Numbered from the stretch's first letter, positions 698-22,066 are shown. The stretch: DNA of 64,000 bases from Alphaproteobacteria bacterium CG_4_10_14_0_8_um_filter_37_21 (GCA_002791835.1 PFNE01000002.1:30456-94455); one strand, 5' to 3'. The notes: generated by a model from the sequence alone, not told the origin. Made by a program: numbers and translations.

Positions 698-1450
698 ATG
701 CCAGAAATTGTTAAAAACTCTCAATTTTCTGTAAAACGTCTCAGCAGCGTGATTGTTGCTGCACAAGATGTTTTAACACAAAAACTAAATGTGATTGCCA
801 ATGCTCTTTCCAATACAGGAACCACTGGGTTTAAGTGTTCTTTTTTAAGAACTAAAGAAACAGAACATGCAAGCCCTGATGGCACAAAAGTATCTTACCC
901 ACAAGTTGCCGGCACAATGTATGACTTTTCTCAAGGCGGCACCAAAACAACAGGTGAACAAACACATGTTGCCTTAATGGGAAAAGGGTTTTTCAAGGTG
1001 CAGACACAAGCAGGCACAAAATATTCACGAAATGGTGAATTTTCAATAAACGCTAAAAATGAACTTATTGACAGTGTTGGAAATTTGATTTTATCAGATA
1101 AAAATTCACCGATTGTTTTTCCAGAAAATGCTGGGACGATATCAATTGATAATAAAGGTGTTGTCAGTGTGAATGGCGAAAAAGTCGACAAATTGGGCAT
1201 AATAAATTTTAAAAATGAGAAACTTTTAAAAGCTTACGGCAATAGTTTTTTTGACACAGAGCAAGCAGAAACACCCTCAGATGCTCTTGTATCTCAAGGC
1301 GTTTTAGAACTTTCTAATGTTTCATCTATGCAAGAACTTGTGAATATGATGGAAGTTGAACAACGTTTTATGAATTTACAAAAATCATTAGATGAATATG
1401 ACAAAAGTATAAAAAGAACAATCAGTGCCGATAAAGGCACTTCAGCTTAA
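698..1450 (+). CDS. flgF: Flagellar basal-body rod protein FlgF
   Basis: 250 aa. N-terminal rod motif (VIANALSNTGTTGFK) and a C-terminal SNV..ELVNMMEVEQRF motif typical of Flg rod proteins. First gene of an F-G-A-H block. Confidence 0.75.
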   Translation: MPEIVKNSQFSVKRLSSVIVAAQDVLTQKLNVIANALSNTGTTGFKCSFLRTKETEHASPDGTKVSYPQVAGTMYDFSQGGTKTTGEQTHVALMGKGFFKVQTQAGTKYSRNGEFSINAKNELIDSVGNLILSDKNSPIVFPENAGTISIDNKGVVSVNGEKVDKLGIINFKNEKLLKAYGNSFFDTEQAETPSDALVSQGVLELSNVSSMQELVNMMEVEQRFMNLQKSLDEYDKSIKRTISADKGTSA

Positions 1451-1466
1451 TTAAAGGAACCAATTC

Positions 1467-2258
1467 ATGTTAAATAGCGCACTACAGGTTGCCGTTTCAG
1501 GGTTAAAAGCAGCAGAAGGTCGTTTACATACATCGGCATCTAACTTAGCGAACTTAAATTCGGTTGCAGGTAAAAAAACACACCTACTTGTAACGGATCG
1601 ATCTTACAGAAACTTAGTAACACCTGGTTCTAGTACATCAGAATCGGGCACCATTAATCCAACTGGCTATCAACTTGGTACAGGTGTTCAAATTATTGGA
1701 AACTACCAATCATTTTCACAAGGCACACGTATTGATACAGGACGCGCTCTTGATATTTTTATAGATGGCGATGGTTTTTTGCCCATAACTTTACCGAGTG
1801 GGGACACCGCTTATACGCGTGTTGGCAATTTACAAGTCAATAATAACGGAGAACTTGTGATGCCCGGAACAGGTTATATCGTGCAACCAGGTATTACGTT
1901 TCCAGCAGATACGATTGATATAGATATAAGCGCAACGGGTGAAGTATCCGTCACAACAACAGGTGGTACGCAATCATCAATTGGGCAACTACAACTTGCA
2001 ACCTTCTTAAATCCATCGGGACTTAAATATAATGGCAGCGGTATGTATCAAAATTCAGGTGCATCAGGAGAAGCCGTTTTAGCGAATCCAGGCAGTGGAA
2101 AACATGGCGGTTTAATTCAAAAATCACATGAAGGGTCTAATATACAAGCTGTTGATGAAATGGTTGAACTTGTGCAAATTGAAAAAGATTATAATGCGAT
2201 CACGAAAGTACTGAAAACAGGGGAAAAAATGTGGGAGGCTAGCAATGCAATTGTTTAA
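1467..2258 (+). CDS. flgG: Flagellar distal rod protein FlgG
   Basis: 263 aa. N-terminal rod motif (ASNLANLNS), C-terminal GSNIQAVDEMVELVQIEKDYNAITKV motif, and FlgG-like size. Confidence 0.75.
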   Translation: MLNSALQVAVSGLKAAEGRLHTSASNLANLNSVAGKKTHLLVTDRSYRNLVTPGSSTSESGTINPTGYQLGTGVQIIGNYQSFSQGTRIDTGRALDIFIDGDGFLPITLPSGDTAYTRVGNLQVNNNGELVMPGTGYIVQPGITFPADTIDIDISATGEVSVTTTGGTQSSIGQLQLATFLNPSGLKYNGSGMYQNSGASGEAVLANPGSGKHGGLIQKSHEGSNIQAVDEMVELVQIEKDYNAITKVLKTGEKMWEASNAIV

Positions 2259-2961
2259 ATATTTACTTTGTTTGCTTTTATTAGTGCAACCTGTTGTGTC
2301 AAATTTTAAAGAAGAGCAGGGCGCTGACAAAGGCAGTGTACATGCTGAAGTGCTATCGCTTTTAAATGCTGAAATTTCACAAAAAGTTAATGTTACAGAT
2401 TTTGGTATAAAACTAGATAACTGGACATCATCTTGGGAATCTGACAAAGTTCAATGTTTAAAGTTGAAGGATTTGAAAATTAGCCATAATCAAACACGCT
2501 TTGCTGCACAAATTGATGGTTTTAAAACAACAAAAAGGTTGTTTGGAAAAGTTGAATGGTATATAGACGTACCTGTTTTAAACAGAATGCTTCGCCCAGG
2601 TGAAGAAATTCAGGCAGATGATATCATCCTTCAAAAAATTGAATCACATAAAATAAATGCCTTTCATCTAACAGATGCAGGTCAACTTATAGGCATGATT
2701 GGCCGCCACAGTGTTCTAAAACCTGGTGTACTCTTAACAAAAAGCGACGTTCAGGCGCCAATGGTCGTTAAACGGGGTGCTGTTATGCGGGTTACGCTAA
2801 AAAAGGGTTCTTTAACTGTTAGTAACAAAGGTATTGCCTTAAAAGATGCGGCACGTGATGCAACGATTCCAATAGAAATGATGAACAACAATGGTAAAAA
2901 AGATAAAAAGACAGTATATGCTGTCGTATTATCATCAGAAAACGCAGAAATAAGGTTATGA
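2245..2961 (+). CDS. flgA: Flagellar P-ring assembly chaperone FlgA-like
   Basis: 238 aa with a signal peptide (LLCLLLLVQPVVS). The C-terminal region is FlgA/SAF-like (KRGAVMRVTLKKGSLTVSNKGIALKDA). It overlaps the flgG stop and sits between flgG and flgH, as does Caulobacter flaD. Confidence 0.6.
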   Translation: MQLFKYLLCLLLLVQPVVSNFKEEQGADKGSVHAEVLSLLNAEISQKVNVTDFGIKLDNWTSSWESDKVQCLKLKDLKISHNQTRFAAQIDGFKTTKRLFGKVEWYIDVPVLNRMLRPGEEIQADDIILQKIESHKINAFHLTDAGQLIGMIGRHSVLKPGVLLTKSDVQAPMVVKRGAVMRVTLKKGSLTVSNKGIALKDAARDATIPIEMMNNNGKKDKKTVYAVVLSSENAEIRL

Positions 2962-2965
2962 AATT

Positions 2966-3724
2966 ATGAATATTCATAAAATTAAAACACACATCTTATT
3001 GCTAAGCACATGCTGTCTACTAAGTGGATGTATGGCTGAAAAAATGTCAGAAATTGGCGATGGACCAAAGATAAGTCAAATTCAAAATCCAACTATGGCA
3101 CATGGTTATGCACCGGTAAGCATGCCAATGCCAGCACCATCACAGCCTGAACACCATATTAATTCATTATGGCAAATTGGTTCAAAAGCATTTTTTAAAG
3201 ACCAACGTGCAGGCAAAATTGGAGATATTGTAACCGTTGCTGTGCTGATTGATAACAAGGAATCCACAAGCTTTACGCCTTCAATGTCTAAAGAAACAAA
3301 GACTGATGCAAGCCTTGGTAATTTTTTAGGATTACAGAGCCAGGTAAAACGCATTTTACCGCATAAATTTTCTGATAATTTACCAACAAAGTGGCTTGAT
3401 TCAACCTCAAAACCATCGCATTCAGGAAGTGGCAAATATAATCTTGAAGACAAAATGAAATTCAAAATTTCTGCAACCATTATACAAATTATGCCAAACG
3501 GTAATCTGGTCATACAGGGACACACTGAATTTAAGCTTATGAATGAAGTTAGAGAAGTTGAATTACGCGGTATTATTCGTCGTTCAGATATTCAGTCGAA
3601 TAATTCAATTTCAAGTGATAAAATTGCAGAGCTTCGCATTGTTTATGCAGGACGGGGCGATATTACGGATGTTGCCAATAAGCCTTGGGGTGTTCAGGCA
3701 GTTGAAAAAATAATGCCATTTTAA
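2966..3724 (+). CDS. flgH: Flagellar L-ring lipoprotein FlgH
   Basis: 252 aa with lipobox LLSGC. FlgH core motifs present: SLW...FFKDQRAGKIGDIVTV and GNLVIQG...EVREVELRGIIR. Confidence 0.85.
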   Translation: MNIHKIKTHILLLSTCCLLSGCMAEKMSEIGDGPKISQIQNPTMAHGYAPVSMPMPAPSQPEHHINSLWQIGSKAFFKDQRAGKIGDIVTVAVLIDNKESTSFTPSMSKETKTDASLGNFLGLQSQVKRILPHKFSDNLPTKWLDSTSKPSHSGSGKYNLEDKMKFKISATIIQIMPNGNLVIQGHTEFKLMNEVREVELRGIIRRSDIQSNNSISSDKIAELRIVYAGRGDITDVANKPWGVQAVEKIMPF

Positions 3725-3811: not shown

Positions 3812-5608
3812 TCAAGATAGACTGGAATTTAACTCATCTAACTCTAACCACCTTAGCTCCATAGACTCTTGCTTGTTTTTCATCTCTTCCAGACTAGCTG
3901 TTAATTTTTCAAACTCTTCTGGATTATTTAGATAAAGTTTTGGGTTATGCAGCTGTTCTTCTGTTTTTTGTATATCAGCTTCTAAACGTTTTAAGTCACC
4001 TGGAAAATTATCATAATCGCGCTGATCTTTATATGTTAGCTTATGACGTTTTGGAAGCGGCGTAATTTCCTTTTTTTCAGGCGCCTTTTCAGGCTCTAAT
4101 TTTGACGCCTTACCAATGAGCGTTGTCGCGCCAAATTTAGCTTCATAGTCACTGTAGCCACCAACACATTCTTTAACAGATCCATCTGGATGAATTGCAA
4201 ATACCGCCGTTACAAGCTGATCCATAAAATCACGGTCATGACTAATTAGAATTAAAGTGCCTTCATAGCTACTGAGCATACTAATAAGCAAATCTAAAGT
4301 ATCAGCATCCAGATCGTTTGTAGGCTCGTCTAATATAAGTACATTAGATTTTTGCGCTAATATTTTGGCAAGTTGTAGGCGGTTTTTTTCGCCACCTGAT
4401 AAAATGCTAATTTTTCCACGCGCTTGTTTATCATCAAACATAAATTGCTTTAGGTAACCAACCACGTGCATAGCACGACCTTGAACCTCTACAGAATCTC
4501 CACCTGTTGGACATAGATACTGCCACGGAGAATCATTGGGGTCCATTGCCTCACGCTCTTGCTGGAAATAAGCAATATCAATAGATTTACCTAGACGTAC
4601 ACGACCTATATCAGGCGTTAACTCACCGATCATCATTTTCAGAAGCGTTGACTTTCCTGCCCCATTTGGCCCAATGATACCAATACGATCTTTTTTAAAA
4701 ATACGCGTTGAAAAGGGGCCCAAAGATAGTGCATCTTTATATTTTTTTTCAATAGCAAAAGCTTCTGATACTAATTGACTTCCATACGCTTTTTCAGTAC
4801 TGGCCATTGTCATACTTTTAGGTAGATCTGACAAAAGATTTTTTCTTCGATCTCGCATTTCAATCAAGCGTTCTAATCGACCTTGATTACGTTTTCTACG
4901 GCCTGTAACACCGCGTTGTTTCCAGTGCTCTTCCATTTTTAATTTAGCGCGTACTTTTGTCATTTCTGACTTTTGATTTTGCTCAATCTCTTCTTGCCAC
5001 TGCTCAAAGTGTTTGTATGATCTGTTTGTACGCCTTAAATCACCACGATCAAGCCATACCATACTACGCGTTGTACGCCTTAAAAAATAACGATCATGAC
5101 TGATCATTATTAACGCGCCTTGATAATTATTTAAATAATCCTCTAACCATTGAATAGCTTCTATATCTAAGTGGTTTGTTGGTTCGTCAAGCAACAATAC
5201 ATCAGGGTTACCTGCCAAAGCCCGTGCGAGCAGTACGCGACGTTTTTGCCCACCTGACAACGTTTCAATAGCCCGACTAGCATCAATTTTTAAAGCTTCA
5301 AGCAGCATATCAGCAGCGTATTCTTCACCCGCTGTTTCCATCACAATTTCAAGTATGCTTTTACCCTGAGGCAAGTCCAGGTCTTGCGGTAAGTAATGTA
5401 CGGTTGTATTGGGCTTTTGGTAAAATTCACCAGCATCAAGTTCATAAATACCAGCTAAAACTTTTAAAAGTGTTGATTTCCCCTGCCCGTTTCGCCCAAT
5501 TAAACAGACATGGTCATTCTCTAGTATATTAATTTCCAACCCTTCAAACAAAGGTTTGGCACTAAAACTTAACAGACCATCATGAATGGTAAAAACAGGT
5601 AAGGTCAT
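3812..5608 (-). CDS. ABC-F family ATPase (Uup-like, two ABC domains, C-terminal coiled coil)
   Basis: 598 aa. Two Walker A motifs (GRNGQGKST, GPNGAGKST) and two signature motifs (LSGGQKRR, LSGGEKNR). No transmembrane domain; charged C-terminal tail. Confidence 0.85.
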   Translation of the reverse strand: MTLPVFTIHDGLLSFSAKPLFEGLEINILENDHVCLIGRNGQGKSTLLKVLAGIYELDAGEFYQKPNTTVHYLPQDLDLPQGKSILEIVMETAGEEYAADMLLEALKIDASRAIETLSGGQKRRVLLARALAGNPDVLLLDEPTNHLDIEAIQWLEDYLNNYQGALIMISHDRYFLRRTTRSMVWLDRGDLRRTNRSYKHFEQWQEEIEQNQKSEMTKVRAKLKMEEHWKQRGVTGRRKRNQGRLERLIEMRDRRKNLLSDLPKSMTMASTEKAYGSQLVSEAFAIEKKYKDALSLGPFSTRIFKKDRIGIIGPNGAGKSTLLKMMIGELTPDIGRVRLGKSIDIAYFQQEREAMDPNDSPWQYLCPTGGDSVEVQGRAMHVVGYLKQFMFDDKQARGKISILSGGEKNRLQLAKILAQKSNVLILDEPTNDLDADTLDLLISMLSSYEGTLILISHDRDFMDQLVTAVFAIHPDGSVKECVGGYSDYEAKFGATTLIGKASKLEPEKAPEKKEITPLPKRHKLTYKDQRDYDNFPGDLKRLEADIQKTEEQLHNPKLYLNNPEEFEKLTASLEEMKNKQESMELRWLELDELNSSLS

Positions 5609-5687
5609 AAAACAAACAAATCAACATCATAAAAAATCGTACCTGTTTCTACCACCAAATAGCAAGTTTCTATTTTATATAGAATTT

Positions 5688-6680
5688 CTAAATTAAAGAA
5701 AGGCTTCTTAAAATCCGTTTTAAAAGATCACGACTAGAATTTATCAAAACTTCTTGAACAAGATGAGGGGAGCTTGCGACCCAGCTTGCTGAAAATTCAG
5801 GATGAACACCGGAAAGAACAATATTACCAGCCTCCTGAATAACAACATTTAGACCAGATGCAGTTTCAGCAATCACGGCGGCTTTAGCGTGACCGTCGAA
5901 AGAACACCCCCCATTACAAAACACAGATGATCTTGGCTTACCTGCCTCCTGAATATAGGTTATCGGAAAGGAAACTCCATATTGAGAAAATTGATTTTTT
6001 TCAAACGCCACAAGTGGCCCAGATGCAATTGCTTGTGCTAAGCCAACACCTTCTCTTTCAATACAGATATTTCCTGGCATCGTGAACTTTGAGCTAGAGG
6101 ATAAAAAATATGCCCCCGCCCCAACACCAAGACACTTACCGCCACTAATTGCAAAATTTTTAATTTTTTCTTTCCCTAATGCTGTTAATTTTTCATGAAA
6201 TGGGGTTGCGGCACCACCAGGCATAATAAATAAATCACATCGCGCCACCTGTAGTTCTCCAGCTTGTATATCTGCTGCAGTTACAGGTCGTAAATCAAAA
6301 GTAGCAGAGAGTGCGCCAAATGCACGCTTCCACAGATCAACAGAATTTGGCATAACGCCATCATCATTATATAAGTATACTTTAGTTCGCTGCCTTACAT
6401 CAGCAAGATTAATGACGGGTAAAATATCATCACCCGTTTCGTAGGCATCTTGACGAGAGAGACGCCCAGATAAAAGTTCAGGAGAAAGCCCCTGCTCTTC
6501 TTCGGGTACAAATCTAGTATCATCATCTTTATTTTTATTTTCGCTTATTGATGACCGCTTATTGGCATAGTCAACAGGGCTTATGACAACCCCTAGGTCT
6601 TGGGCACATATACAACCTATCGTTAGAAATGGGGCGAATAAGTGATGTTGTTTTAATGTAAAAAATTTACGCAAACGCAT
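5688..6680 (-). CDS. Putative lipoprotein with a BPL_N / class-I glutamine-amidotransferase-like domain
   Basis: 330 aa. Signal peptide with a lipobox-like LTIGC. The core DLFIMPGGAATPF...ISGGKCLGVGAGAYF resembles the BPL_N pattern PGG...GGxYLGxCAGxY, but the elbow Cys position is Gly. Confidence 0.5.
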   Translation of the reverse strand: MRLRKFFTLKQHHLFAPFLTIGCICAQDLGVVISPVDYANKRSSISENKNKDDDTRFVPEEEQGLSPELLSGRLSRQDAYETGDDILPVINLADVRQRTKVYLYNDDGVMPNSVDLWKRAFGALSATFDLRPVTAADIQAGELQVARCDLFIMPGGAATPFHEKLTALGKEKIKNFAISGGKCLGVGAGAYFLSSSSKFTMPGNICIEREGVGLAQAIASGPLVAFEKNQFSQYGVSFPITYIQEAGKPRSSVFCNGGCSFDGHAKAAVIAETASGLNVVIQEAGNIVLSGVHPEFSASWVASSPHLVQEVLINSSRDLLKRILRSLSLI

Positions 6681-6774
6681 AAAAATAACTCCTTTGAATG
6701 ATAAAAAAACAAGATATTAGTACAAACAATATATTGAATTTATTAATATTTAGTTAACAAGATTTTTTTTCTTT

Positions 6775-7833
6775 CTATGCAGCAACTTCCCGACAAACAA
6801 TATCAACAAAACATGGTTTTTCTAAGGGTTTACCGACTGTTACCCATGAATTATGACCTAAAGAAAATTTTCTATTCAGGCGAAATGGCTTAATATTATA
6901 ACTTTGCACTTTAAACCTGAACTTAATGTTATAGTCTATCCCAACATAAAAAAGCGTTAAATCACGCAATACTTTATAATAAATACCCGTTACAGTATCA
7001 TCATCATTCTTAATTTTTGTTGGCATAAACTGGCTGATTTGTTTCCAGTTCATTGGCCCCATGTCAATGCGAATACCTGCAGATTGGTTCCATACTTTAT
7101 CACCAAGTATGACCTCTGTTCCAAGGGCGTTCATACGCCCTGTACGTTGTCCCAATTTTGTCAGTTCAGAATCTGGTGCACGTTCCCAGGCCCCTTGATA
7201 TTGATGTACCTCAACAGGCATATTAAAATGTGTTGATAACACTTTAACCAAACCATGTGCTGATCTTGGGCGCCGCCATAAAGCATCATGGTAACTTAAA
7301 ATTGTACGATCACTAACATGTACTTTATTACGAAAAGATTCGTTACCCATTCCACAAATACTTAACAAGCATTTTCCAATATGTGTTTGCGTTGGGTCTT
7401 TTTGTGAATATGAAATGAATGTCCGTTTTTTTAAACGATGCCAAATAGAAGCATAACGATGGTTGAATATATCTAGAAAGTCACGAAATCCGTTATCATG
7501 CTGACTGCTGCGCTCCATCAATAATTCTGTATATGGGGTTGGTAAAGGCCCTTGAACACCCGCTATACCCATAAAATTAATCCAAAGAACTGGCTGGGTT
7601 TGATTGGCACCTGGCAATGAAAAACTATGAATTTCAGAACTTGATGGCGACAAAGACACACGTGATTTTATGCATACAGCCTCTTTAGAGGGTGCTATTC
7701 CTTCGCCTAATGGCACGGCATTAGGGGTCATTTGCTGTAATAATTCTACCGCCTGATGAAAATCAAACTGAAAGGTATCTGATTTTAACGTGTCGTTTAT
7801 AGTGAAATTTGTGTTCCTGGCAAGGGCTTCCAT
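6775..7833 (-). CDS. tssG: Type VI secretion baseplate subunit TssG (ImpH/VasB family)
   Basis: 352 aa. The N-terminal F.FDFHQAVELLQ motif and the length fit TssG. It overlaps the tssF 3' end by 37 nt, so the start may be internal. Confidence 0.8.
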   Translation of the reverse strand: MEALARNTNFTINDTLKSDTFQFDFHQAVELLQQMTPNAVPLGEGIAPSKEAVCIKSRVSLSPSSSEIHSFSLPGANQTQPVLWINFMGIAGVQGPLPTPYTELLMERSSQHDNGFRDFLDIFNHRYASIWHRLKKRTFISYSQKDPTQTHIGKCLLSICGMGNESFRNKVHVSDRTILSYHDALWRRPRSAHGLVKVLSTHFNMPVEVHQYQGAWERAPDSELTKLGQRTGRMNALGTEVILGDKVWNQSAGIRIDMGPMNWKQISQFMPTKIKNDDDTVTGIYYKVLRDLTLFYVGIDYNIKFRFKVQSYNIKPFRLNRKFSLGHNSWVTVGKPLEKPCFVDIVCREVAA

Positions 7834-9623
7834 CGCATTATATCCTTTTGACGGTGATCATTTTTTAGTACGACTTCTACGAAAGAATTAATTCCCACGT
7901 GTAAGCCAAAATAGTGGCGCAAAATACAAGCAAGTAAGAACGTTGATCCTCCTGCATTGGTCGCATCATTCATAATTAACGTTACTTCTTGACCGCGAAC
8001 AAAACCACGCCATGCTTCATTATTAACGCGTCTTACAACAGGTTTAACTGAAATGTCTGTAATTGTTTCAATTTCAAAGTGTGACTGTTTTGATCCGCGC
8101 AAATAAAGACGAAGCATTTCGGCAAGCCCTGCAACTGATGCTGGGCCTGAAGTTAAGCCAATATGGTTAACAGAAAGTTGTGAAATTAATTTCCATAAAG
8201 TTTCCCCATCTTCTGGTGAATCTACTTGTGACACAGGTTTGTTTAAACAAACAATTTGTGACACAGGCAAAGCATCTTCTGCCGTTAAGGCGGCATTATA
8301 AGGAAGCTGTTCTGCAAGGTAACGGTTCGTACATAGGGTGTCAGCGTAAATAATTTGCTGGGCTGGTGTTTGCGCTGAAAAATTAATATCGACAAACGAT
8401 AAGTATACGTCACTGCCTGGCAAATCCCTAGCACTTGCGGAAGTACGTTTATGCGTCCAGTATACGGTATCCGGATTCAACATCGTATGATGACTAAAAC
8501 TATAATACGGTGACATTTCAATAGGATCAGCCTCGCCTTCAACTGAGCCTGAAATATTTAAAATAGAATATATTTCCGTCGTTTGATCTAAACGTTGATC
8601 GGGAATCAACCTATACTCTGTTTGTTTTTTATTAAGGCGAAAAGGATCCGTTGATTTTTTAAATAAGTTGACAATTGGCGTTGCCCCCAGTAAAAAATCT
8701 TCTTTTTTTAACTCAATTTCATGGATTGCACCTGGATCATTTATTGGAATATAAAGGTCTAATGTTTCAGATGCTAAATCAACAAGATCAAATGCTTTAA
8801 GTAAATCTTTTATTCTAAAAAAAAGAAATTTTTCGGGAAGATGAAAATATTCCTGAAGCAACTGATAGCTATGAATAGAATGCTCTCCCATGGGAAGAGA
8901 CATTTCATCGGCATCAAAACCAATTGGCTTTAAACTGCCCGCTGGAAGGGCGTGTATATTCTTACCATTGGTGCTAACAAAAGCTTGCTGTTCTGTTCTT
9001 GAAAAAATTAATTGATATAAAAGCAACGCGAGTTTTTTGTCTGCAGCTAAGTGAAAATCCACACTATCCATATGCATGTCTTTAAAATCAACACTGGTAG
9101 ATTTTAACTTTATATGTATAGCCCAATCAGATTGCAAAGGCTGGCCGCAAGCTGATAGTCTATTTGCAGCAACAACAGCAACATGATCAACCTCAATAGG
9201 CCAAAGTGTCACAGGGTAAACAGTTGTAAACGTGCAATCAATCCCCTCCATTGCAGAGGCGTTTAACCTAGTGCCCTTAGGTACTTTAAAGCCTGTTGTT
9301 AAATTTCCACGACTGGGTTCTGCTTGCAAATGTGCAATACCCATTGACGGTACGGGATTGACCAAGTGGGGATATAAAATATTGAGAAGCGCTGACGCTG
9401 TCTGAGGGTGCTGGTCTTCTATTTCTTTTGATATACGGCCACTTAAAAATGCAAAAGATTCAAGTAATCTTTCCACATGTGGATCTGGTGACTCGCTATC
9501 TGAAAGTTCAAGTCTTCTGGCAATTTTTGGATATTGACGCGAAAAATTACGACCTGCATTACGTAAATAATCTAATTCACGATTATAATAATATAAAAGT
9601 TGTTCACGTGATGAATTTGCCAA
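7797..9623 (-). CDS. tssF: Type VI secretion baseplate subunit TssF (ImpG/VasA family)
   Basis: 608 aa. The N-terminus LLYYYNRELDYLRNAGRNFSRQYPKIARRL...PDPHVERLLESFAFLSGRI...LYPHLVNPVPSM is the hallmark TssF signature. Confidence 0.9.
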   Translation of the reverse strand: MANSSREQLLYYYNRELDYLRNAGRNFSRQYPKIARRLELSDSESPDPHVERLLESFAFLSGRISKEIEDQHPQTASALLNILYPHLVNPVPSMGIAHLQAEPSRGNLTTGFKVPKGTRLNASAMEGIDCTFTTVYPVTLWPIEVDHVAVVAANRLSACGQPLQSDWAIHIKLKSTSVDFKDMHMDSVDFHLAADKKLALLLYQLIFSRTEQQAFVSTNGKNIHALPAGSLKPIGFDADEMSLPMGEHSIHSYQLLQEYFHLPEKFLFFRIKDLLKAFDLVDLASETLDLYIPINDPGAIHEIELKKEDFLLGATPIVNLFKKSTDPFRLNKKQTEYRLIPDQRLDQTTEIYSILNISGSVEGEADPIEMSPYYSFSHHTMLNPDTVYWTHKRTSASARDLPGSDVYLSFVDINFSAQTPAQQIIYADTLCTNRYLAEQLPYNAALTAEDALPVSQIVCLNKPVSQVDSPEDGETLWKLISQLSVNHIGLTSGPASVAGLAEMLRLYLRGSKQSHFEIETITDISVKPVVRRVNNEAWRGFVRGQEVTLIMNDATNAGGSTFLLACILRHYFGLHVGINSFVEVVLKNDHRQKDIMRWKPLPGTQISL

Positions 9624-9784
9624 AATTACTCCATAGCTTAAGCTGTAAAAAAAGCCCCATGTAAAATGGTAGCGCAGTTTATGTTTTGTAGCAACGGGGT
9701 GCTGTTGGTTATGTCTTTTAATAAAAATTTAGCTGACAAAACTTAAGTATATATTGTGAAAAAACAAATAAAGGTTAATTTTTT

Positions 9785-9809
9785 AAGGCTTTTCAGCCTT
9801 TTGTTTTTT
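9785..9809 (+). terminator. Orphan rho-independent terminator-like hairpin
   Basis: AAGGCT-tttc-AGCCTT followed by TTGTTTTTT on the plus strand. No annotated plus-strand gene lies upstream (tssF is on the minus strand). Confidence 0.5.
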
Positions 9810-10023
9810 ACAATTTTATGGGCTTAAAGCGGCGAGAGTAGATATCAATCCTATATAGACCAGAAATGGAAGCTATTAAATGTTCAGGTCAAGCACCACC
9901 AAAATCTTTACGACTTTGTATTTGTTGTGTCATTGAATTTTTGATATTTTGCCTAAAAAAATCTATCACGAATTGGTTGACCCTGCTATTCTGTAAACAG
10001 ATTTTTTTTAATTTCATATAAAC

Positions 10024-10947
10024 ATGACAATAACACAAGAACAGTTAGACGATATCAAGCAAGCAAAAGGACAAGAATTTAAAACAAAGCGTCCAACGGT
10101 ACAAGCACTTGAAGACGTATTATATGATGCACATCCAGTTTTAGATCATGGATTTGTTCGTGTTGTAGATTATTTGGGTGATGACAGTGCTATTGTTCAA
10201 GCTGCACGTGTTTCTTACGGTCGTGGTACTAAACAAAAAACACAAGATGCGGGTCTTATAAATTATTTAATGCGTCACCGTCACTCTACCCCATTTGAAA
10301 TGTGTGAAATTAAATTGCATATTAAATTACCTATATTTATTGCGCGTCAATGGATCCGTCATCGTACGGCTAATGTAAATGAATATTCAGCGCGCTATTC
10401 TATTTTAGATAATGAATTTTACATCCCAAAGCACGAACATTTGGCAGCACAGTCTGATGTTAATAATCAAGGGCGTGGTAATTTAATTACAGGTGATGAT
10501 GCAGATAAAGTACTAGATCTTTTAAAGCGTGATGCAGCGCAGTGTTATGATACTTATGAGCATTTGTTAAATGAAGAAAATACAGACCCAGCCCGACAAG
10601 GTTTAGCCCGTGAATTGGCTAGAATGAATTTGCCTGTCAATTTTTACACACAGTGGTATTGGAAGATAGACCTTCATAACTTGCTTCATTTTTTATCGTT
10701 ACGTGCAGATTCTCATGCCCAATACGAAATTGCAGCTTACGCTGAGGTTATGCTAGAAATGGTCAAAAAATGGGTGCCGATCACCTATCAAGCCTTCCTA
10801 GACTACAAAAAAAATAGTGTTCACTTATCTGCTAAAGCCTTTAATGTTTTAAAAAGGCGCTTAAATGGAGAAAAAGTTGAACAAGAAAATTCAGGCTTAA
10901 GCAAGCGCGAGTGGTCAGAAATGATTGATATCATGGAAACTAAATAG
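10024..10947 (+). CDS. thyX: Flavin-dependent thymidylate synthase
   Basis: 307 aa with the ThyX motif RHRHSTPFE and [18 protein letters not shown]. Confidence 0.9.
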
Positions 10948-16317: not shown

Positions 16318-16854
16318 TTAAAGTTGATCAATAATGGCTGCCATATTTTCATCTTTTTGTCGACTCCCCTTAGATGATCCAAATTCAAAAGAATATGCAT
16401 CTTTCAAACAAGCACCAAAAATACCAGATATTGTTGAAATTATTGCAACAGCCTCACCGGGTAGGCCTTCTTTTGAAAACAAACATAAAGAACACAAACA
16501 AGTACCTAAACCTAAAACAGCGCTCAAAACCATAATATCTGCCCGGCGATTCGTTCTACCCGTTACAGCAAGTAGCTGAGCGTCACGCTTTCTTGCCTCT
16601 TGCCTATCGTGAATTAAAGACAGTTCAACTTCGGTTTCCATAGCACATAATTCTTTTTGAAATGAACATGCTTTATCTGGGTTATCCCTTAAATGAGAAA
16701 TAATTCCCTGAATATCATCCATTCCTGTTAGTTTTTTAGCTATATCTGTCACACGTGATGCAATTGTCTCTGTTCGATCTCCGCCGAACCATTTCCCAAG
16801 CATGGGTGCAAATTCTACTAACCCCAGGGCAGCTAATGATAATGGAAAAGTCAT
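16318..16854 (-). CDS. Putative holin (3-TM, GTA-release-holin-like)
   Basis: 178 aa. An amphipathic N-terminus, a charged central helix, and 2 clear C-terminal TM segments (IMVLSAVLGLGTCLCSLCLF, AVAIISTISGIFGACL). The tail FEFGSSKGSRQKD resembles the FGSSxGSxxK ending I recall for this holin family. It lies directly downstream of the lysin. Confidence 0.5.
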   Translation of the reverse strand: MTFPLSLAALGLVEFAPMLGKWFGGDRTETIASRVTDIAKKLTGMDDIQGIISHLRDNPDKACSFQKELCAMETEVELSLIHDRQEARKRDAQLLAVTGRTNRRADIMVLSAVLGLGTCLCSLCLFSKEGLPGEAVAIISTISGIFGACLKDAYSFEFGSSKGSRQKDENMAAIIDQL

Positions 16855-16863
16855 AGTAAACTC

Positions 16864-17286
16864 CTATAATTTATAAAATATATGATTGCCAATTTGACAA
16901 GTTGGCCGTTTTTTCACCGTCCACGATGGGAATAATTTTCGGTGATGATAATGATTAGCACCATGCGTAACATCTGCAACCGCATCACCACACACTAAAA
17001 ATTGATCCGCAATTTTTAAACACACATCAAAAACACGACATGTAATGTTTGGTGCTAATAAAATAGCCAAATTTGGATCACCCTTATTCCAGCAAGAAAA
17101 TTGCCAACTTTTAAGGCACACTTCCTTAATAGTTCGTCCATACCAGCTTTGTGCTTTGAATCTGTTGATAATTGTATTGGCAACAGCCTTCAAAGAAGCA
17201 TCGCCAAATTTAGCGACTTCCCCCCTGGCCTCTCCGTATAAAGTGCGGGCAAAAACTTCTTTTTCACTTAAGTTATTAATCGTCAT
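16864..17286 (-). CDS. Cell-wall hydrolase, SleB/Hydrolase_2 family (endolysin)
   Basis: Motifs ARTLYGEARGE, QFSCWN, THGANHYH, PSW and IGNHIFY match SleB-type hydrolases. The likely start is the ATG at 17286 (MTINNLSEKE), which overlaps the upstream ORF stop as ATGACGATTAA. The track ORF extends to 17328. Confidence 0.75.
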   Translation of the reverse strand: MTINNLSEKEVFARTLYGEARGEVAKFGDASLKAVANTIINRFKAQSWYGRTIKEVCLKSWQFSCWNKGDPNLAILLAPNITCRVFDVCLKIADQFLVCGDAVADVTHGANHYHHRKLFPSWTVKKRPTCQIGNHIFYKL

Positions 17287-17773
17287 TTTCAATCTCCCGA
17301 CAGTGAATATGAATAAATCCTGTGGCAATATCTTTGATGAAAAAAGATGAATATTTTTTCATGAAATTATTTTTATTATCAACAAAAAAAGAAAACCCTC
17401 CATTCATTAATTCAACTCCTAGTTGTTTTCCACTTTGACTATTGGAAAGCTTTATGACAGGATTTCCATCAATAAAATCAACAGAAAAATTCCGTTGCCC
17501 CACTTGACACGTACTTTTATCCATGCTATAAGTAGCACCGTAACTCCATAGTGATTGTTCCCCAGCTTTTTGTTGGGGCAATCTTTTTTCCCCAACTTTT
17601 ACAATACCTTTCCTTAAAACATCATAGTTCTTCTCTATTAAAATTTCTGGAATAGCACAATTTCTGACCCAATCTTGGGATTTACCTTCCTCAACAATAA
17701 TATGTTCATAAACAATTTTAATTTTAGACATACACCGCGGTAAATTTAAGGCATCTCGCTTATATAAAGGCAA
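17276..17773 (-). CDS. Hypothetical protein (ORFan), translationally coupled to the lysin gene
   Basis: 165-aa track ORF with a TTG start. The first ATG, at 17731, gives MSKIKIVYEH. No recognisable motif. Its frame is open from 17812 and overlaps the upstream 89-aa ORF in the -1 register. Confidence 0.5.
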   Translation of the reverse strand: MPLYKRDALNLPRCMSKIKIVYEHIIVEEGKSQDWVRNCAIPEILIEKNYDVLRKGIVKVGEKRLPQQKAGEQSLWSYGATYSMDKSTCQVGQRNFSVDFIDGNPVIKLSNSQSGKQLGVELMNGGFSFFVDNKNNFMKKYSSFFIKDIATGFIHIHCREIENDD

Positions 17774-18015
17774 TAAAGTGCCCCCCTTGCATCTACCAAC
17801 ACATCTGGATTCTCATAATATGTTGGCTGAACCCGCGCTTGTATAATAATAATTGGTGGCAAGTCAGAATCATTGTCCGCCATATTAAAATCAAAATCAT
17901 CAGGTGGCCTTAAAGCGTAAGATACATTGTCATCAATATCGCCAGCATCACTTTCAAAAATTTGACCTGCAGATTCCTTTAAAAAAACTTTATTTAATCG
18001 ATTGCGCCAATACAT
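17746..18015 (-). CDS. Hypothetical acidic protein (ORFan)
   Basis: 89 aa with an Asp-rich centre (DAGDIDDN...PPDDFDFNMADNDSD). It begins about 25 nt after a terminator-like hairpin. Its 3' end overlaps the next ORF across a G6 run. Confidence 0.45.
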   Translation of the reverse strand: MYWRNRLNKVFLKESAGQIFESDAGDIDDNVSYALRPPDDFDFNMADNDSDLPPIIIIQARVQPTYYENPDVLVDARGALYCLYISEMP

Positions 18016-18042
18016 GAGTATTTCCTTTCAAAAAATTGATAT

Positions 18043-18071
18043 AAAAAAACCGTTCCAAATTCATGAAGCGG
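18043..18071 (-). terminator. Rho-independent terminator-like hairpin inside the phage-derived locus
   Basis: In the minus sense, CCG(C)TTC-atgaatttg-GAACGG followed by TTTTTTT. It lies about 200 nt downstream of the 372-aa ORF and just upstream of the 89-aa ORF. Confidence 0.5.
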
Positions 18072-18275
18072 ATTTGTTGTGACCAGTGGACTAAATTATT
18101 TAAATACCTCTAACTGTTTATATTAATTGCAGCATCTTCAATATCCTTTAATCCCATCCATACTTTTCCTTTTAAACTTGTGATCGTTATACAGACAAAA
18201 TATTATGCTGTTTATGTATTGAATAATTTGTTAAAAAAATGTTATACGCAGTCTGCTAAGGAAGATAAAAACAAA

Positions 18276-19394
18276 TCAATTCTTAACAATTTCATAATTA
18301 CGGGAAAAAATTTGCTTATTTGTGAGGTCATGTAAGTCTAAATATATTTCAGTTAAATTTTCTTTCAACACATTAACTAAATCTGTTTTAGACGCAAACT
18401 CTCTATTTTGCATGCTTTTTCCTTGTTGGCAGGCAGCATTTCTAACTGAAACACATTTTATTAAATGTTCAGGCTCTATGTGGGTTGTATTCGGTACACC
18501 TGGATCCTGTTTTTCTTCTTTGTTTTTTGCAACCCCCTGAACACTATGTTGCAAACTATTTCTAATATTTTCCAAATTTACAGTCTCTTTTGAAAAATTT
18601 ATCCATAAAGTTGTTTTCGCATGTTCACAATCACAAAAACTTTTCAACCTAGATATTCTACCCTTAATAACCTCTGTTGTACTTTTTGTAAAAGTAACAG
18701 TATCGCCAATTGTATATTTAAGGCTACAAACAAATGGAACGTCCACTTTTAATAGATACGCCTGTCTAGACTGAAACCCCGCATAAATACTTTGCTCTAC
18801 AGCCTGCTGTATGGCTAAATACCCAGTTTTAGTATCAAGAAATGTATCACTTCCGTCAAAAATCACATCTTTTTTAACTTTAAAATCAAATACTTTACAT
18901 GCTTCAGTGCTGTCGGCCTGGAGTAGTGGAACATAATGATCACTTTGCCAACGTAAAAGTATCTCTATTTTTTCTTTCCGCTTATAGGCGCACGACCACT
19001 GAACCCAAAAATGCCCTTTATACTCTTGAACAGGTAAAAAAAATTTTCTGCCCTGAATATTTACAGGAATAGTGTCATTTTTTGTTGTTGAACACCGCAC
19101 CAATTTAGAAGACAAAACCGTATACCCTGTTTTGCGTGCCATTTTTTTGCCCAGTGTTTGCCCAATACTTGGAAAAGAAGCCTTTAATGCATCGCCCGTC
19201 AGACTCAATACACGCCTGTCAGGAAATGCATTTTTAATATAAGGAAATAAATTAATAGCCCCCTGTCCCTTTTGTACCCACATGGCACGTACCACAATTT
19301 TTATTCTATGTAACGGCGCGCGTATTTGCTCAATTGCTGCAGTGTCCATTAAAACGTAGGGTGTTATATCCTTACCCACATCATGGGGCAGCAT
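18276..19394 (-). CDS. Hypothetical protein (372-aa ORFan in phage-derived locus)
   Basis: Long intact ORF 31 nt downstream of the 110-aa ORF. The sequence looks beta-rich. No P-loop, no coiled-coil tape-measure character and no portal motifs are recognisable. Confidence 0.55.
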   Translation of the reverse strand: MLPHDVGKDITPYVLMDTAAIEQIRAPLHRIKIVVRAMWVQKGQGAINLFPYIKNAFPDRRVLSLTGDALKASFPSIGQTLGKKMARKTGYTVLSSKLVRCSTTKNDTIPVNIQGRKFFLPVQEYKGHFWVQWSCAYKRKEKIEILLRWQSDHYVPLLQADSTEACKVFDFKVKKDVIFDGSDTFLDTKTGYLAIQQAVEQSIYAGFQSRQAYLLKVDVPFVCSLKYTIGDTVTFTKSTTEVIKGRISRLKSFCDCEHAKTTLWINFSKETVNLENIRNSLQHSVQGVAKNKEEKQDPGVPNTTHIEPEHLIKCVSVRNAACQQGKSMQNREFASKTDLVNVLKENLTEIYLDLHDLTNKQIFSRNYEIVKN

Positions 19395-19425
19395 AGATAT
19401 ATTTTTACAGTCATGAGAGATAGGG

Positions 19426-19758
19426 TCAACAAAAGGTAACTGCCATTTTTTTTAATTCTATATATTCTAACAACGATTGTTCATGCAGAACCCCGTATTG
19501 TTTATTTAACGCACGCCCAATATACATAAGCTTCATGCAACCAGGCTCTACGTATTCAACGCCACCTAAAAGATGACCTTTAAAAAATACAGTGTTATTA
19601 CAAAGCAGTGTTATAGAACTGGATGTCAGATTTTTCGTTTCACACAACAGCTCAATTTGTGTAAATTCTCCCTCTTGTGTTTTTAGTGTCAGTTTTAATA
19701 TTTTCACTTCCTCTGCAGCGCTCTCCCCCGTTTGTTCAAGTAAGCCTCGTAAATTCAT
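19426..19758 (-). CDS. Hypothetical protein (110-aa ORFan)
   Basis: Intact ORF, first gene of the 110/372-aa pair, transcribed divergently from eamA. No recognisable motif. Confidence 0.45.
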   Translation of the reverse strand: MNLRGLLEQTGESAAEEVKILKLTLKTQEGEFTQIELLCETKNLTSSSITLLCNNTVFFKGHLLGGVEYVEPGCMKLMYIGRALNKQYGVLHEQSLLEYIELKKMAVTFC

Positions 19759-19847
19759 AATTTTCTCGCTTTCATATCCTGGATTTGGTACTATCTAGTG
19801 ATTATATAAGTATTGACAATAAAACGAATCAAGCTGGGTATACATAA

Positions 19848-20801
19848 ATGACAGATACAACAACGACACAACAAGATTCTGTACTGCTGGATAGAATGTA
19901 TACGTTTCTACAAAAAAATCCTTTGTTTAAGTGGTTTTTTAAACCTGGTTATTTACAAGGCGTATTTTGGGCGAACATGATATCCGTTGTTGCCATATCA
20001 AATGATGTTGCTATGCGCTTTCTTGGTGAACGTTTAGATGTTATTGAAATTTCATTTTTTAGGTTTTTCTTTTCAATGATCGTGTTGTTACCCTTTATGC
20101 TTGGCCAAGGCAAAGCACTTTTTCAAACAAAAGTACCTGGTATGCACGCAGCACGTGGTATTGTTGGTGCTGTTGCCATTGCCTTATGCTGCTGGTCTGT
20201 GAATGTTATGCCACTTGCACAAAGCACCAGTCTTATGTTCATGCAACCGCTATTTTTCCTACCTTTAGCTTTTTTCTTTTTAAAAGAACACGTATCAAAA
20301 GAACGCTGGATTGCAACGCTCGTAGGTTTTGCAGGACTTTTGTTTATTATACGCCCTGGAACAAGTGAATTTCATGTTTATAGCTTCATTCCATTAAGTG
20401 CAGCATTTCTGTTTGCAACACTTGATGTTTTAGCAAAAAAAATGGTTGCCAATGAAAAAACGCTAACGCTTTTATTTTATTTTGGCTTCGTAACAAGCTT
20501 AATATCACTACCCTTTGTATTTTCAGTATGGCAAATGCCAACACAATCAGAATTTTGTTATTTAATACTACTTGGTATTGGTGGAAACTTAATACAGGTA
20601 TGCTTGTTCTTAGCTTTTTCAGCCACAGAAGCATCTGCTCTAGCGCCTTTTAGATATGGCGAATTTATTGTTGCAGGATTATTTGGTTACTTATTTTTCT
20701 CTCAAGTACCAACAACGACACTACTGATTGGGTCAAGTATTATTATTGCATCAGCTTTTTATCTATCTCATAAAGAAATTCAAATGGCAAAACAGAAGTA
20801 G
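19848..20801 (+). CDS. EamA/DMT-family transporter
   Basis: 317 aa with about 10 predicted TM helices and the two-EamA-repeat architecture typical of drug/metabolite transporters. Confidence 0.75.
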   Translation: MTDTTTTQQDSVLLDRMYTFLQKNPLFKWFFKPGYLQGVFWANMISVVAISNDVAMRFLGERLDVIEISFFRFFFSMIVLLPFMLGQGKALFQTKVPGMHAARGIVGAVAIALCCWSVNVMPLAQSTSLMFMQPLFFLPLAFFFLKEHVSKERWIATLVGFAGLLFIIRPGTSEFHVYSFIPLSAAFLFATLDVLAKKMVANEKTLTLLFYFGFVTSLISLPFVFSVWQMPTQSEFCYLILLGIGGNLIQVCLFLAFSATEASALAPFRYGEFIVAGLFGYLFFSQVPTTTLLIGSSIIIASAFYLSHKEIQMAKQK

Positions 20802-20945
20802 TCACCCTCCTATACTTTAAAGTGCATCTCCAACAGTGGCTGCATATTTAATGACCAGCTAAAAAAATCTTAATATATTTAAGAACCTAAAAAGCTGATA
20901 TTAAGTTACCTGTTTTTTAAAATATAGCTCAATACTGTTCATGCC

Positions 20946-21455
20946 TTAAATTTCATTTAAATGAAGGGTCCACTCATTTTCCATGGACCATTCTTTTGTT
21001 TTTAATGAAAAATCAGTTATACGCATGTCTAAATAAGGGCGATACGTTACAAAAAAATCCCGATCACGACTTAGTCGTATAGATTTATCAATTGTTATTT
21101 TCCTGCCCAATTGTGAGAAAGGCAGATTATTTTGATCACTATCTATAACGGCAACAGATCCAGATACATCCTGTCTACTTATTGTATGAATACCGTTTTC
21201 TATCTTCTCCCAAAGGCGTTGAATACAACCAACTCGCACCACAGATCCTGGGCTGAAATTATCAACCGCTAAAACACTTTTATCTTTTGCCTCAATTATT
21301 GTTTTGTATTTTAACGCCTTTGGCCCAAGATGCAGCAGCTCACCATTTACTGTACGTGCCATTTGTCCTAATTGAATTGGTTTTAAAGTCTGTACGCAAC
21401 CACGTGCAGAAAAAGGAGGCAACCCCCCTGTGCTAAATGTTAAAACTGTTTCCAC
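20946..21455 (-). CDS. Hypothetical protein at the tail-tube position of the head-neck module
   Basis: 169 aa. GTG start preceded by a strong SD (GAGGGGG). It follows the DUF3168-like gene in the same orientation. I see no similarity to TP901-1/lambda-V type tube proteins. Confidence 0.5.
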   Translation of the reverse strand: METVLTFSTGGLPPFSARGCVQTLKPIQLGQMARTVNGELLHLGPKALKYKTIIEAKDKSVLAVDNFSPGSVVRVGCIQRLWEKIENGIHTISRQDVSGSVAVIDSDQNNLPFSQLGRKITIDKSIRLSRDRDFFVTYRPYLDMRITDFSLKTKEWSMENEWTLHLNEI

Positions 21456-21465
21456 TAAATCCCCC

Positions 21466-21579
21466 TCAATACCAAAAAGGTAAAGGCGCTATTAATAGCG
21501 TTTCCCTCTGTGTTAAATATTGATCAAAAAAAAGGGCTAGATCATCTGGATCTAACCCTTGTATTATATTATTTTTCAT
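21466..21579 (-). CDS. Possible 37-aa micro-ORF
   Basis: Own translation: MKNNIIQGLDPDDLALFFDQYLTQRETLLIAPLPFWY. Its TGA stop overlaps the SD of the 169-aa ORF, which suggests coupling. It is below the ORF-track size cutoff. Confidence 0.3.
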   Translation of the reverse strand: MKNNIIQGLDPDDLALFFDQYLTQRETLLIAPLPFWY

Positions 21580-21661
21580 AATTTACCTATTTAATCGAAG
21601 TGCCAAGTAACTTACCCTGACAAATATCCTCTTTTACGCTTCGCCATGGGTTCTTCTCCCT

Positions 21662-22066
21662 TTATCCACGAACAAGAACTTCATAATAGTCTTCAACCAA
21701 ACGTGGTGTATTTTGTTTAGGTAAATCTATCACACTATTTGACAAGCGAATTGTTGCACGCATACCGTCTTTTACAATAATTGTTTTACCATCCATTAAT
21801 TTCTTAATATCATCAGCAGTATTAAGATTTTTATTATTGGTAGGGGTGTTACTAATAACGGATGTTTTTATTTTTAATCGTGCATGCCCACAATCAGTCC
21901 CTAATTTTAAGGAAGTCCAAATTTCTTCTAGCTCTAATAAAACTGCAGGTGGTTCAGTTTCAGGTGGGTATGCAAGATGAATTTTTTCTTTTAAGCCGTG
22001 CCTAATAATACTTTCATCTTCTGTTAATAAAGTCCTTATTGCGGACAAGACGCCGTAATCAGCCAT
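21662..22066 (-). CDS. DUF3168-like protein (tail-terminator / g8 position)
   Basis: Likely start is the ATG at 22066 (MADYGVLSAIRTLL...) with a GGAGA SD 7 nt upstream. The track start at 22126 would overlap the adaptor gene. At about 134 aa, its size, position and N-terminal pattern fit DUF3168/gpU-position proteins. Confidence 0.45.
   Translation of the reverse strand: MADYGVLSAIRTLLTEDESIIRHGLKEKIHLAYPPETEPPAVLLELEEIWTSLKLGTDCGHARLKIKTSVISNTPTNNKNLNTADDIKKLMDGKTIIVKDGMRATIRLSNSVIDLPKQNTPRLVEDYYEVLVRG

What the first reader, a model, noticed from the sequence alone, without database searches (positions are those of the whole stretch)
6775..9623. Orphan T6SS baseplate pair tssF-tssG without any other T6SS core gene nearby
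TssF (hallmark N-terminus) and TssG are unambiguous and overlap by 37 nt. The usual upstream partner tssE is absent: 9624-10023 is non-coding and thyX follows on the other strand. No tssB/C, hcp, vgrG, tssK/L/M/A or clpV occurs anywhere in this 64-kb window. TssF and TssG form the baseplate wedge together with TssE and TssK and are homologues of phage gp6/gp7-type wedge proteins. An isolated, apparently intact pair therefore means one of three things: a T6SS scattered across the chromosome, a remnant, or a wedge module used by some other contractile or phage-derived apparatus. A phage-derived locus lies only 7 kb away, but I see no direct link.
Basis: partly seen in the sequence, partly recalled or inferred. 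Interest (0 to 1): 0.55.

Follow-up and report, generated by a model that had tools for sequence, protein, structure and literature searches.

The report
Scattered T6SS baseplate gene pair
These two intact genes encode the baseplate part of a type VI secretion system whose genes normally lie in several separate places on the chromosome in this group of protist-dwelling bacteria (Holosporales), so the 'orphan' pair is an expected arrangement that has already been published.

Summary
Window 7797-9623(-) is a full-length TssF and 6775-7833(-) a full-length TssG. They overlap by 37 nt, and no other T6SS core gene lies in the 64-kb window.

The pair is not an orphan in any biological sense. The contig comes from an uncultured Holosporales-like alphaproteobacterium. 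In 10 relatives with TssF 42-91% identical, tssF-tssG is the only T6SS module within about 10 kb, each time among different housekeeping genes. An eleventh, a Finniella MAG, has vgrG 7 kb upstream.

Midha et al. [quoted passage not shown]

I confirmed parts of this directly. In the closest named genome, vgrG lies 142 kb from tssFG on the same contig. Holosporales tssB-tssC modules sit in loci without tssF/G.

Against a 91%-identical orthologue, dN/dS is 0.04 for tssF and 0.08 for tssG. The neighbouring ABC-F housekeeping gene gives 0.04, so the pair is not decaying.

The nearby phage-like locus is an HK97-type head module of the gene-transfer-agent kind. It has no sheath or baseplate genes, so it is unrelated.

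Verdict: an ordinary new member of a known dispersed T6SS, of low interest.

The parts
7797..9623 (-). tssF, T6SS baseplate wedge subunit, 608 aa, TTG start
   Evidence: Full-length match to PF05947 (E 5e-181) and TIGR03359 (580 bits). Matches solved TssF 6GIY_A over residues 10-599 (E 2.7e-46). dN/dS is 0.041 against the 91%-identical orthologue in L194.
6775..7833 (-). tssG, T6SS baseplate wedge subunit, 352 aa
   Evidence: Matches PF06996 (E 2.4e-70) and TIGR03347 (227 bits). Matches solved TssG 6GIY_C (E 1.6e-14). dN/dS is 0.081 against L194.
7797..7833 (-). 37-nt overlap of the tssF 3' end with the tssG 5' end; translational coupling is inferred
   Evidence: Coordinates. The same 37-nt overlap occurs in L002-L005 and L194 and in 41 of 67 tssF loci from many phyla.
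9629..9632 (-). GGAG Shine-Dalgarno, 5 nt upstream of the TTG start of tssF
   Evidence: Read directly from the sequence.
9624..10023 (.). Divergent intergenic region between tssF and thyX; presumed to hold the tssFG promoter, which was not located
   Evidence: No ORF here. The sigma-70 consensus scan of 5500-10100 gave no more sites than shuffled sequence (12 found, 14.1 expected), so the promoter is inferred, not shown.
5688..6680 (-). 330-aa BPL_N / class-I glutamine-amidotransferase-like gene with a hydrophobic N-terminus, 94 nt downstream of tssG on the same strand; possibly co-transcribed, link to the T6SS unproven
   Evidence: Matches PF09825 (E 2.1e-20). It follows tssG in the close relative L194 but not in L002-L005. 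It evolves fast: 47% aa identity and dN/dS 0.37.

Best explanation
tssF-tssG here is the baseplate-wedge operon of a functional T6SS of the proteobacterial i-type whose genes are dispersed over the chromosome. This is the norm in Holosporales, obligate intracellular alphaproteobacteria of protists. TssF and TssG are made from one transcript, and the conserved 37-nt overlap suggests they are translationally coupled. Together with TssE and TssK, encoded elsewhere, they would form the wedges that polymerise around the VgrG hub into the baseplate. The baseplate docks on the TssJLM membrane complex and starts assembly of the Hcp tube and TssBC sheath. Shown here: the identity and integrity of both genes, purifying selection on them, conservation of the isolated-pair layout in relatives, and the presence of vgrG and tssB-tssC modules at other loci in related genomes. 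Inferred: that this particular genome carries the remaining modules, how the parts assemble, and the target, presumed to be the eukaryotic host or competing bacteria.
For: 1. Both genes are full-length family members that pass curated equivalog cut-offs and match the solved wedge subunits.
2. The closest homologues are Holosporales: 'Holosporales bacterium' at 65%, and Ca. Paracaedibacter symbiosus, Ca. Odyssella thessalonicensis and Ca. Finniella inopinata at 47-50%.
3. In L002, L003, L004, L005, L010, L011, L012, L050 and L194 the pair is the only T6SS module within about 10 kb, each time among different housekeeping genes. By contrast, among the 80 tssF loci drawn from many phyla, tssE is present in 69, hcp in 67, tssC in 66 and tssB in 61.
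4. Midha et al. [quoted passage not shown] Bodocaedibacter vickermanii (PMC8163844). The 2025 review finds the T6SS conserved in almost all Holosporineae genomes except Holospora (PMC11909080).
5. In the closest named genome (GCA_977971875.1), vgrG (record 161597-163810) lies 142 kb from tssFG (record 16707-19525) on one contig and is itself isolated among housekeeping genes.
6. A tssB-tssC module with no tssF/G nearby was recovered on a contig (L099) whose flanking genes are 52% identical to window and L002 genes. The best hits of its TssC are named Holosporales, Finniella and Paracaedibacter.
7. dN/dS is 0.041 for tssF and 0.081 for tssG against L194, compared with 0.043 for the neighbouring ABC-F gene.
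8. The GC content of the pair (0.37-0.385) equals that of the window, so there is no sign of recent transfer.
Against: The rest of this genome could not be examined. Only about 30 kb of its 121.8-kb contig beyond the window was seen, and no tssB, C, K, L, M, A, E or vgrG from this very organism was recovered. The Holosporales T6SS is called 'non-standard' because some core components are apparently missing, and the ORF after tssC in L099 has no Pfam Hcp hit. No experiment has shown the system firing in any Holosporales member.
Confidence: 0.88

Rival explanations
1. The pair is an evolutionary remnant: the other T6SS genes have been lost from this reduced genome and tssF-tssG is decaying or idle.
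For: No other T6SS gene was seen in about 94 kb of this contig. Holospora species have lost the T6SS altogether (PMC11909080), so loss does happen in the group.
Against: Both ORFs are intact and full-length. dN/dS of 0.04 and 0.08 is as low as for a housekeeping neighbour, despite synonymous divergence (dS) of about 0.8-1.2. The same intact pair persists across the order at 42-91% identity. All columns that are invariant across 25 homologues are, by construction, kept in the window protein, which is the first row of the alignment.
Confidence: 0.04
2. The wedge pair has been recruited by a different contractile or phage-derived machine, such as an extracellular contractile injection system, a tailocin, or the neighbouring phage-like particle.
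For: TssF and TssG are homologues of phage wedge proteins (general knowledge). A phage-derived locus lies 7 kb away, and its small ORFs downstream of the connector gene have no annotation.
Against: The neighbouring locus encodes an HK97 prohead protease, a major capsid protein and a head-tail connector (TIGR01543, TIGR01554, TIGR02215). This matches the reduced gene-transfer-agent head modules reported in Holosporaceae endosymbionts (PMC9254644), which derive from non-contractile tails. No sheath, tube, gp25 or baseplate-J family is in the window. In relatives the pair lies in unrelated contexts without phage genes. The proteins score as T6SS equivalogs, not as phage or eCIS baseplate proteins.
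Confidence: 0.03
3. The pair is a redundant second copy beside a complete, clustered T6SS elsewhere that has its own tssF/tssG.
For: Many bacteria carry several T6SS clusters (general knowledge), and the rest of this genome was not seen.
Against: In Holosporales the published layout has the isolated [tssG-tssF] as the system's own copy. The strong purifying selection is not that of a redundant copy. None of the Holosporales-like tssB-tssC loci recovered (L099, L137, L156, L159, L166) has tssE/F/G next to it.
Confidence: 0.05

Closest known systems
Dispersed T6SS of Holosporales endosymbionts (Ca. Bodocaedibacter vickermanii, Paracaedibacteraceae, Caedimonadaceae; Midha et al. 2021, PMC8163844)
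   Same: The isolated [tssG-tssF] operon sits among housekeeping genes, with other modules elsewhere. The window is the same protein lineage, 47-65% identical to named Holosporales TssF. The 37-nt overlap is the same.
   Different: The window organism is an undescribed lineage; its nearest named genome is only 65% identical in TssF. Its other modules were not seen. The flanking genes (thyX and a BPL_N-like gene) differ from those in every relative except the 91%-identical one.
Canonical clustered T6SS-i loci, for example L023 with tssB-tssC-..-tssE-tssF-tssG-clpV-vgrG-MORN-DUF4280, and the E. coli Sci-1 system whose TssKFGE wedge is solved (6GIY, 6N38)
   Same: The TssF and TssG families are the same, with full-length profile matches and the same overlap, so the presumed role in the baseplate wedge is the same.
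   Different: In 69 of 80 such loci tssE is present in the locus (directly upstream of tssF in the loci inspected), and sheath, tube and ClpV genes are adjacent. Here none is within at least 10 kb upstream or 54 kb downstream.
Phage T4-type baseplate wedge proteins (gp6/gp7 with gp25/gp53) and eCIS/Afp baseplates
   Same: Distant structural homology of TssF/TssG to wedge proteins (established knowledge, not tested here).
   Different: The window proteins pass the T6SS equivalog models. No sheath, tube or gp25 partner, and no phage contractile-tail gene, is nearby.

Membership tests
TssF (PF05947 / TIGR03359) | Full-length match above the curated cut-off | tested here: met
   PF05947 gives 603.8 bits (cut-off 25) over residues 7-605 of 608. 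TIGR03359 gives 579.9 bits (cut-off 260.3)..
TssF (PF05947 / TIGR03359) | Homology to an experimentally solved TssF of a baseplate wedge | tested here: met
   6GIY_A / 6N38 TssF, E 2.7e-46, query residues 10-599.
TssG (PF06996 / TIGR03347) | Full-length match above the curated cut-off, with the gene directly downstream of tssF and overlapping it | tested here: met
   PF06996 gives 237.6 bits. TIGR03347 gives 227.1 bits (cut-off 143.3).. 6GIY_C TssG matches at E 1.6e-14.
Complete T6SS-i (13 core components) | tssA, B, C, hcp, E, J, K, L, M, clpV and vgrG present in the same genome | not testable with these tools
   Only this contig of the metagenome assembly is reachable, and no such gene lies in the roughly 94 kb seen. 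In relatives, vgrG lies 142 kb away on the same contig and tssB-tssC lie at separate loci.
Holosporales dispersed T6SS layout | [tssG-tssF] stands alone, flanked by housekeeping genes | tested here: met
   True of the window and of L002-L005, L010-L012, L050 and L194. Published in PMC8163844.
Holosporales dispersed T6SS layout | The organism belongs to Holosporales | tested here: inconclusive
   Inferred only from the best TssF hits and from 52% identity between flanking genes and a Holosporales-type tssBC contig. No rRNA or marker-gene phylogeny was done.
Pseudogene / decaying remnant | Frameshifts, premature stops or relaxed selection | tested here: not met
   The ORFs are intact. dN/dS is 0.041 and 0.081, against 0.043 for neighbouring ABC-F.
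Extracellular contractile injection system / contractile phage tail | Sheath, tube, gp25-like and baseplate-J genes next to the wedge genes | tested here: not met
   No such Pfam family occurs among the called genes of the window. The HMMs for TssB, TssC, Hcp and TssE found nothing.
Francisella-type (T6SS-ii) TssF/IglH | Match to NF041246 above its cut-off | tested here: not met
   25 bits against a cut-off of 75.

The most novel reading that the evidence does not exclude
In this undescribed lineage the TssF-TssG wedge is kept under strong selection although the remaining T6SS core set is incomplete. The Holosporales system is reported to lack recognisable Hcp, TssJ and possibly other parts. 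The pair would then work in a reduced or re-wired contractile apparatus that differs mechanistically from the canonical T6SS. The fast-evolving, apparently secreted BPL_N-like gene downstream could be a lineage-specific accessory or effector.
Probability: 0.05. Interest if true: 0.6.

Novelty: new member of a known kind. Interest (0 to 1): 0.12.

Why it matters
It matters little beyond annotation. A lone tssFG pair in a low-GC alphaproteobacterial contig should be read as one module of the dispersed Holosporales T6SS, not as an orphan or a relic. The wider open question is what this conserved but 'non-standard' T6SS does inside protist hosts and which effectors it delivers. This locus does not bring that question closer to an answer. 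It only adds another lineage in which the baseplate genes are under housekeeping-level constraint.

Tried and rejected
1. I tried to find the other T6SS modules of this same organism and could not. Context look-ups work only by exact protein and reach about 10 kb either side; they showed window -9.3 kb to +58 kb of this contig, and a near-identical relative for the right end. One look-up failed because the called start codon differs from mine.

It returned mostly Acidobacteria and Proteobacteria and only a few Holosporales. I used those loci as a reference set of canonical clusters instead.

3. A TssC alignment scanned against viral contigs found nothing.

4. My first TssC alignment contained a wrong-frame ORF, L029, at 18% identity. 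I rebuilt it without that sequence.

5. A TssC search with a non-Holosporales query would have been swamped by closer relatives of the query. Instead I scanned metagenome contigs with an AT-biased two-motif DNA pattern. I then picked Holosporales-like loci by their isolated layout and by flank similarity. This worked.

6. The sigma-70 promoter scan of the tssF-thyX spacer gave no signal above shuffled sequence.

7. PHROGs and NCBIfam gave no annotation for the small ORFs downstream of the head-tail connector gene, so tail functions there remain unknown.

8. I considered an upstream start for tssF, as called in L194 (620 aa). I rejected it for the window, because the equivalent ATG is out of frame there and the TTG has a good GGAG site.

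Full report
**Observation**

Window 7797-9623(-) encodes a 608-aa protein and 6775-7833(-) a 352-aa protein. They overlap by 37 nt.

- The first protein matches Pfam T6SS_TssF over its whole length (E 5e-181) and the NCBIfam equivalog TIGR03359 (580 bits, cut-off 260).
- The second matches T6SS_TssG (E 2.4e-70) and TIGR03347 (227 bits, cut-off 143).
- Both match the solved TssF and TssG chains of the E. coli wedge complex, 6GIY/6GJ1/6N38.
- The Francisella-type TssF model is not met (25 bits against a cut-off of 75).
- tssF starts at a TTG preceded by GGAG at a 5-nt spacing. An upstream ATG used in a relative's gene call is out of frame in the window.
- Upstream, 9624-10023 is non-coding and thyX runs divergently. 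Downstream come a BPL_N-like gene and an ABC-F gene.

**Is the pair alone in the window?**

Yes, on four lines of evidence.

- The window is part of ENA contig ERZ27293407:k141_481033, 121,829 bp. The Pfam hits precomputed for its called genes, from 9.3 kb left of the window to window position 58,353, list no T6SS family other than TssF and TssG. The remaining genes at the right end are LPG synthase, an ABC exporter, leucyl aminopeptidase and a small LRR protein.
- I fetched 80 tssF loci from a species-representative genome collection and compared every window ORF of 50 aa or more with all their ORFs. Only TssF (hits in 80 loci) and TssG (78 loci) recur.
- I clustered the ORFs of those loci and labelled the clusters with Pfam:

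| Family | Loci of 80 |
|---|---|
| TssE | 69 |
| Hcp | 67 |
| TssC | 66 |
| TssB | 61 |
| VgrG | 54 |
| ClpV | 50 |
| TssA | 38 |
| TssL | 18 |
| TssM | 18 |

- Profile HMMs built from these clusters, searched against window ORFs of 40 aa or more, hit only TssF and TssG. The one exception is a weak AAA+ match of ClpX to ClpV. Holosporales-derived TssB, TssC, VgrG and a possible Hcp gene product also find nothing.

**Whose genome is it?**

The closest TssF homologues are an unnamed Logan contig at 91% and a set of MAG proteins at 65-74%. These include 'Holosporales bacterium' GCA_977971875.1. Next come Ca. Paracaedibacter symbiosus, Ca. Finniella inopinata and Ca. Odyssella thessalonicensis at 47-50%. 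Hits outside this group are 33-42% identical. The window's GC content (0.33-0.40) is uniform across the pair. I infer an uncultured Holosporales-like alphaproteobacterium. This rests on best hits only, not on a marker-gene phylogeny.

**The same arrangement in relatives**

- In L002 (Holosporales bacterium), L003 (a JGI MAG), L004 (Ca. Paracaedibacter symbiosus) and L005 (Ca. Odyssella thessalonicensis), tssF-tssG stands alone with the same 37-nt overlap. The surrounding housekeeping genes are entirely different each time.
- The same holds for the low-GC loci L010, L011, L012 and L050 and for the 91% relative L194. L194 shares only the downstream BPL_N-like and ABC-F genes with the window.
- A Finniella MAG (L013) has vgrG plus a MORN/YwqK-like gene 7 kb upstream.
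- In the 80 loci from other phyla the pair is normally embedded in tssB-tssC-hcp-tssE-tssF-tssG-clpV-vgrG.
- The 37-nt overlap is not special to this lineage. It is the commonest spacing, seen in 41 of 67 loci; another 18 have 46 nt.

**Published knowledge**

Midha et al. 2021 state that in Bodocaedibacteraceae, Paracaedibacteraceae and Caedimonadaceae the T6SS core genes lie at four or more loci. [quoted passage not shown] They also report that these genes are transcribed in Ca. Bodocaedibacter vickermanii (PMC8163844). The 2025 review of the group calls the T6SS conserved in almost all genomes except Holospora. It considers it the likeliest host-interaction device, and 'non-standard' because some components are not recognisable (PMC11909080).

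**Direct checks of the dispersal**

- A VgrG search seeded from the Finniella MAG returned HEEMFOPI_00148. This protein is on the same 306-kb contig as the TssF HEEMFOPI_00022.
- Its coordinates put vgrG (161,597-163,810) 142 kb from tssFG (16,707-19,525), again among housekeeping genes.
- To reach a Holosporales sheath gene I scanned metagenome contigs with an AT-biased pattern for two invariant TssC motifs and annotated the hits with my HMMs.
- Several low-GC contigs carry tssB-tssC with no tssE/F/G nearby. L099 has flanking genes 52% identical to window 38750-39385 and to a gene of L002. L137, L156, L159 and L166 have the sheath gene next to a priA that is 41-44% identical to that of L002.
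- The best database hits of the L099 TssC are named Holosporales bacterium, Ca. Finniella inopinata and Ca. Paracaedibacter sp.. L099 reads tssB-tssC-145-aa ORF-plsY, which fits the published [tssB-tssC-hcp] module with a divergent Hcp.

**Remnant or working genes?**

All values below are against the 91% orthologue in L194.

| Gene | dN | dS | dN/dS |
|---|---|---|---|
| tssF | 0.050 | 1.24 | 0.041 |
| tssG | 0.066 | 0.82 | 0.081 |
| ABC-F (neighbour) | | | 0.043 |
| BPL_N-like (neighbour) | | | 0.37 |

Against the 65% relatives the ratios are 0.16-0.22, with synonymous sites saturated. The pair is therefore under constraint at housekeeping level.

**The phage-like neighbour**

- Window 22448-24696(-) encodes an HK97 prohead protease, a major capsid protein and a head-tail connector.
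- Unannotated small ORFs follow, then a Hydrolase_2/endolysin-like gene at 16864-17328.
- This matches the reduced gene-transfer-agent head modules described for Holosporaceae endosymbionts (PMC9254644).
- These descend from non-contractile tails, and no sheath, tube or baseplate family is present. There is no basis for linking TssF/TssG to this locus.

**Conclusion**

It is a known, conserved feature of the order, so the pair is an ordinary new member of a known system.

The main gap is that the other modules of this very genome were not seen. A full-genome T6SS inventory would settle that.

Noticed in passing
window 30759-32054 (+): A 431-aa protein with a Pfam Ntox11 polymorphic-toxin domain (E 8.4e-7; 29.1 bits, cut-off 25). 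It is a candidate secreted toxin or effector in an endosymbiont that carries T6SS genes.
   Followed up: no
window 16318-25620 (-): A reduced HK97-type head module: prohead protease at 24151-24696, major capsid at 23051-24142 and head-tail connector at 22448-22999. Unannotated small ORFs follow, plus a Hydrolase_2/endolysin-like gene at 16864-17328 and a phrog_1544 protein at 16318-16854. It resembles the GTA remnants reported in Holosporaceae. An EamA transporter gene on the other strand (19848-20801) interrupts it.
   Followed up: partly
window 698-3724 (+) versus L194 8057-8330: The flagellar basal-body genes flgF, flgG, flgA and flgH are present here. They are missing from the syntenic position, between ABC-F and the shikimate-kinase-like gene, in the relative with 91%-identical TssF. 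This could be recent loss or relocation of flagellar genes.
   Followed up: no
window 5688-6680 (-): A BPL_N / glutamine-amidotransferase-like protein with a hydrophobic, signal-like N-terminus lies directly after tssG. It holds that position only in the closest relative and evolves fast: 47% aa identity and dN/dS 0.37, against 0.04 for tssF.
   Followed up: partly
L156:1568-3700 (+); also L137, L159, L166; proteins P0251, P0253, P0280: A single ORF of about 645-711 aa carries VipA (TssB), VipB and VipB_2 (TssC), that is, a fused small-plus-large sheath subunit. It lies next to priA in Holosporales-like low-GC contigs. I do not know whether such fusions have been described.
   Followed up: partly
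L003 8154-9866 (-): A 570-aa protein with eukaryote-type FAST_1 and RESC6 domains lies immediately upstream of tssF in a related MAG. It could be a host-derived or host-mimicking protein.
   Followed up: no
L099 6783-7220 (-): The 145-aa ORF that follows tssC, where hcp is expected, has no Pfam hit. Its only homologue among the fetched loci is in the closely related L122. This fits the reports that Hcp is divergent or 'missing' in Holosporales.
   Followed up: partly
window 63340-63708 (+): A small 122-aa protein with BspA-type leucine-rich repeats (LRR_5, E 1.2e-5, just below the cut-off). Proteins of this kind are typical of host-associated bacteria.
   Followed up: no
window 9785-9800: A GC-rich hairpin (AAGGCTTTTCAGCCTT) followed by a T-run on the + strand sits in the tssF-thyX spacer. 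No upstream + strand gene is there for it to terminate, and its function is unknown.
   Followed up: no
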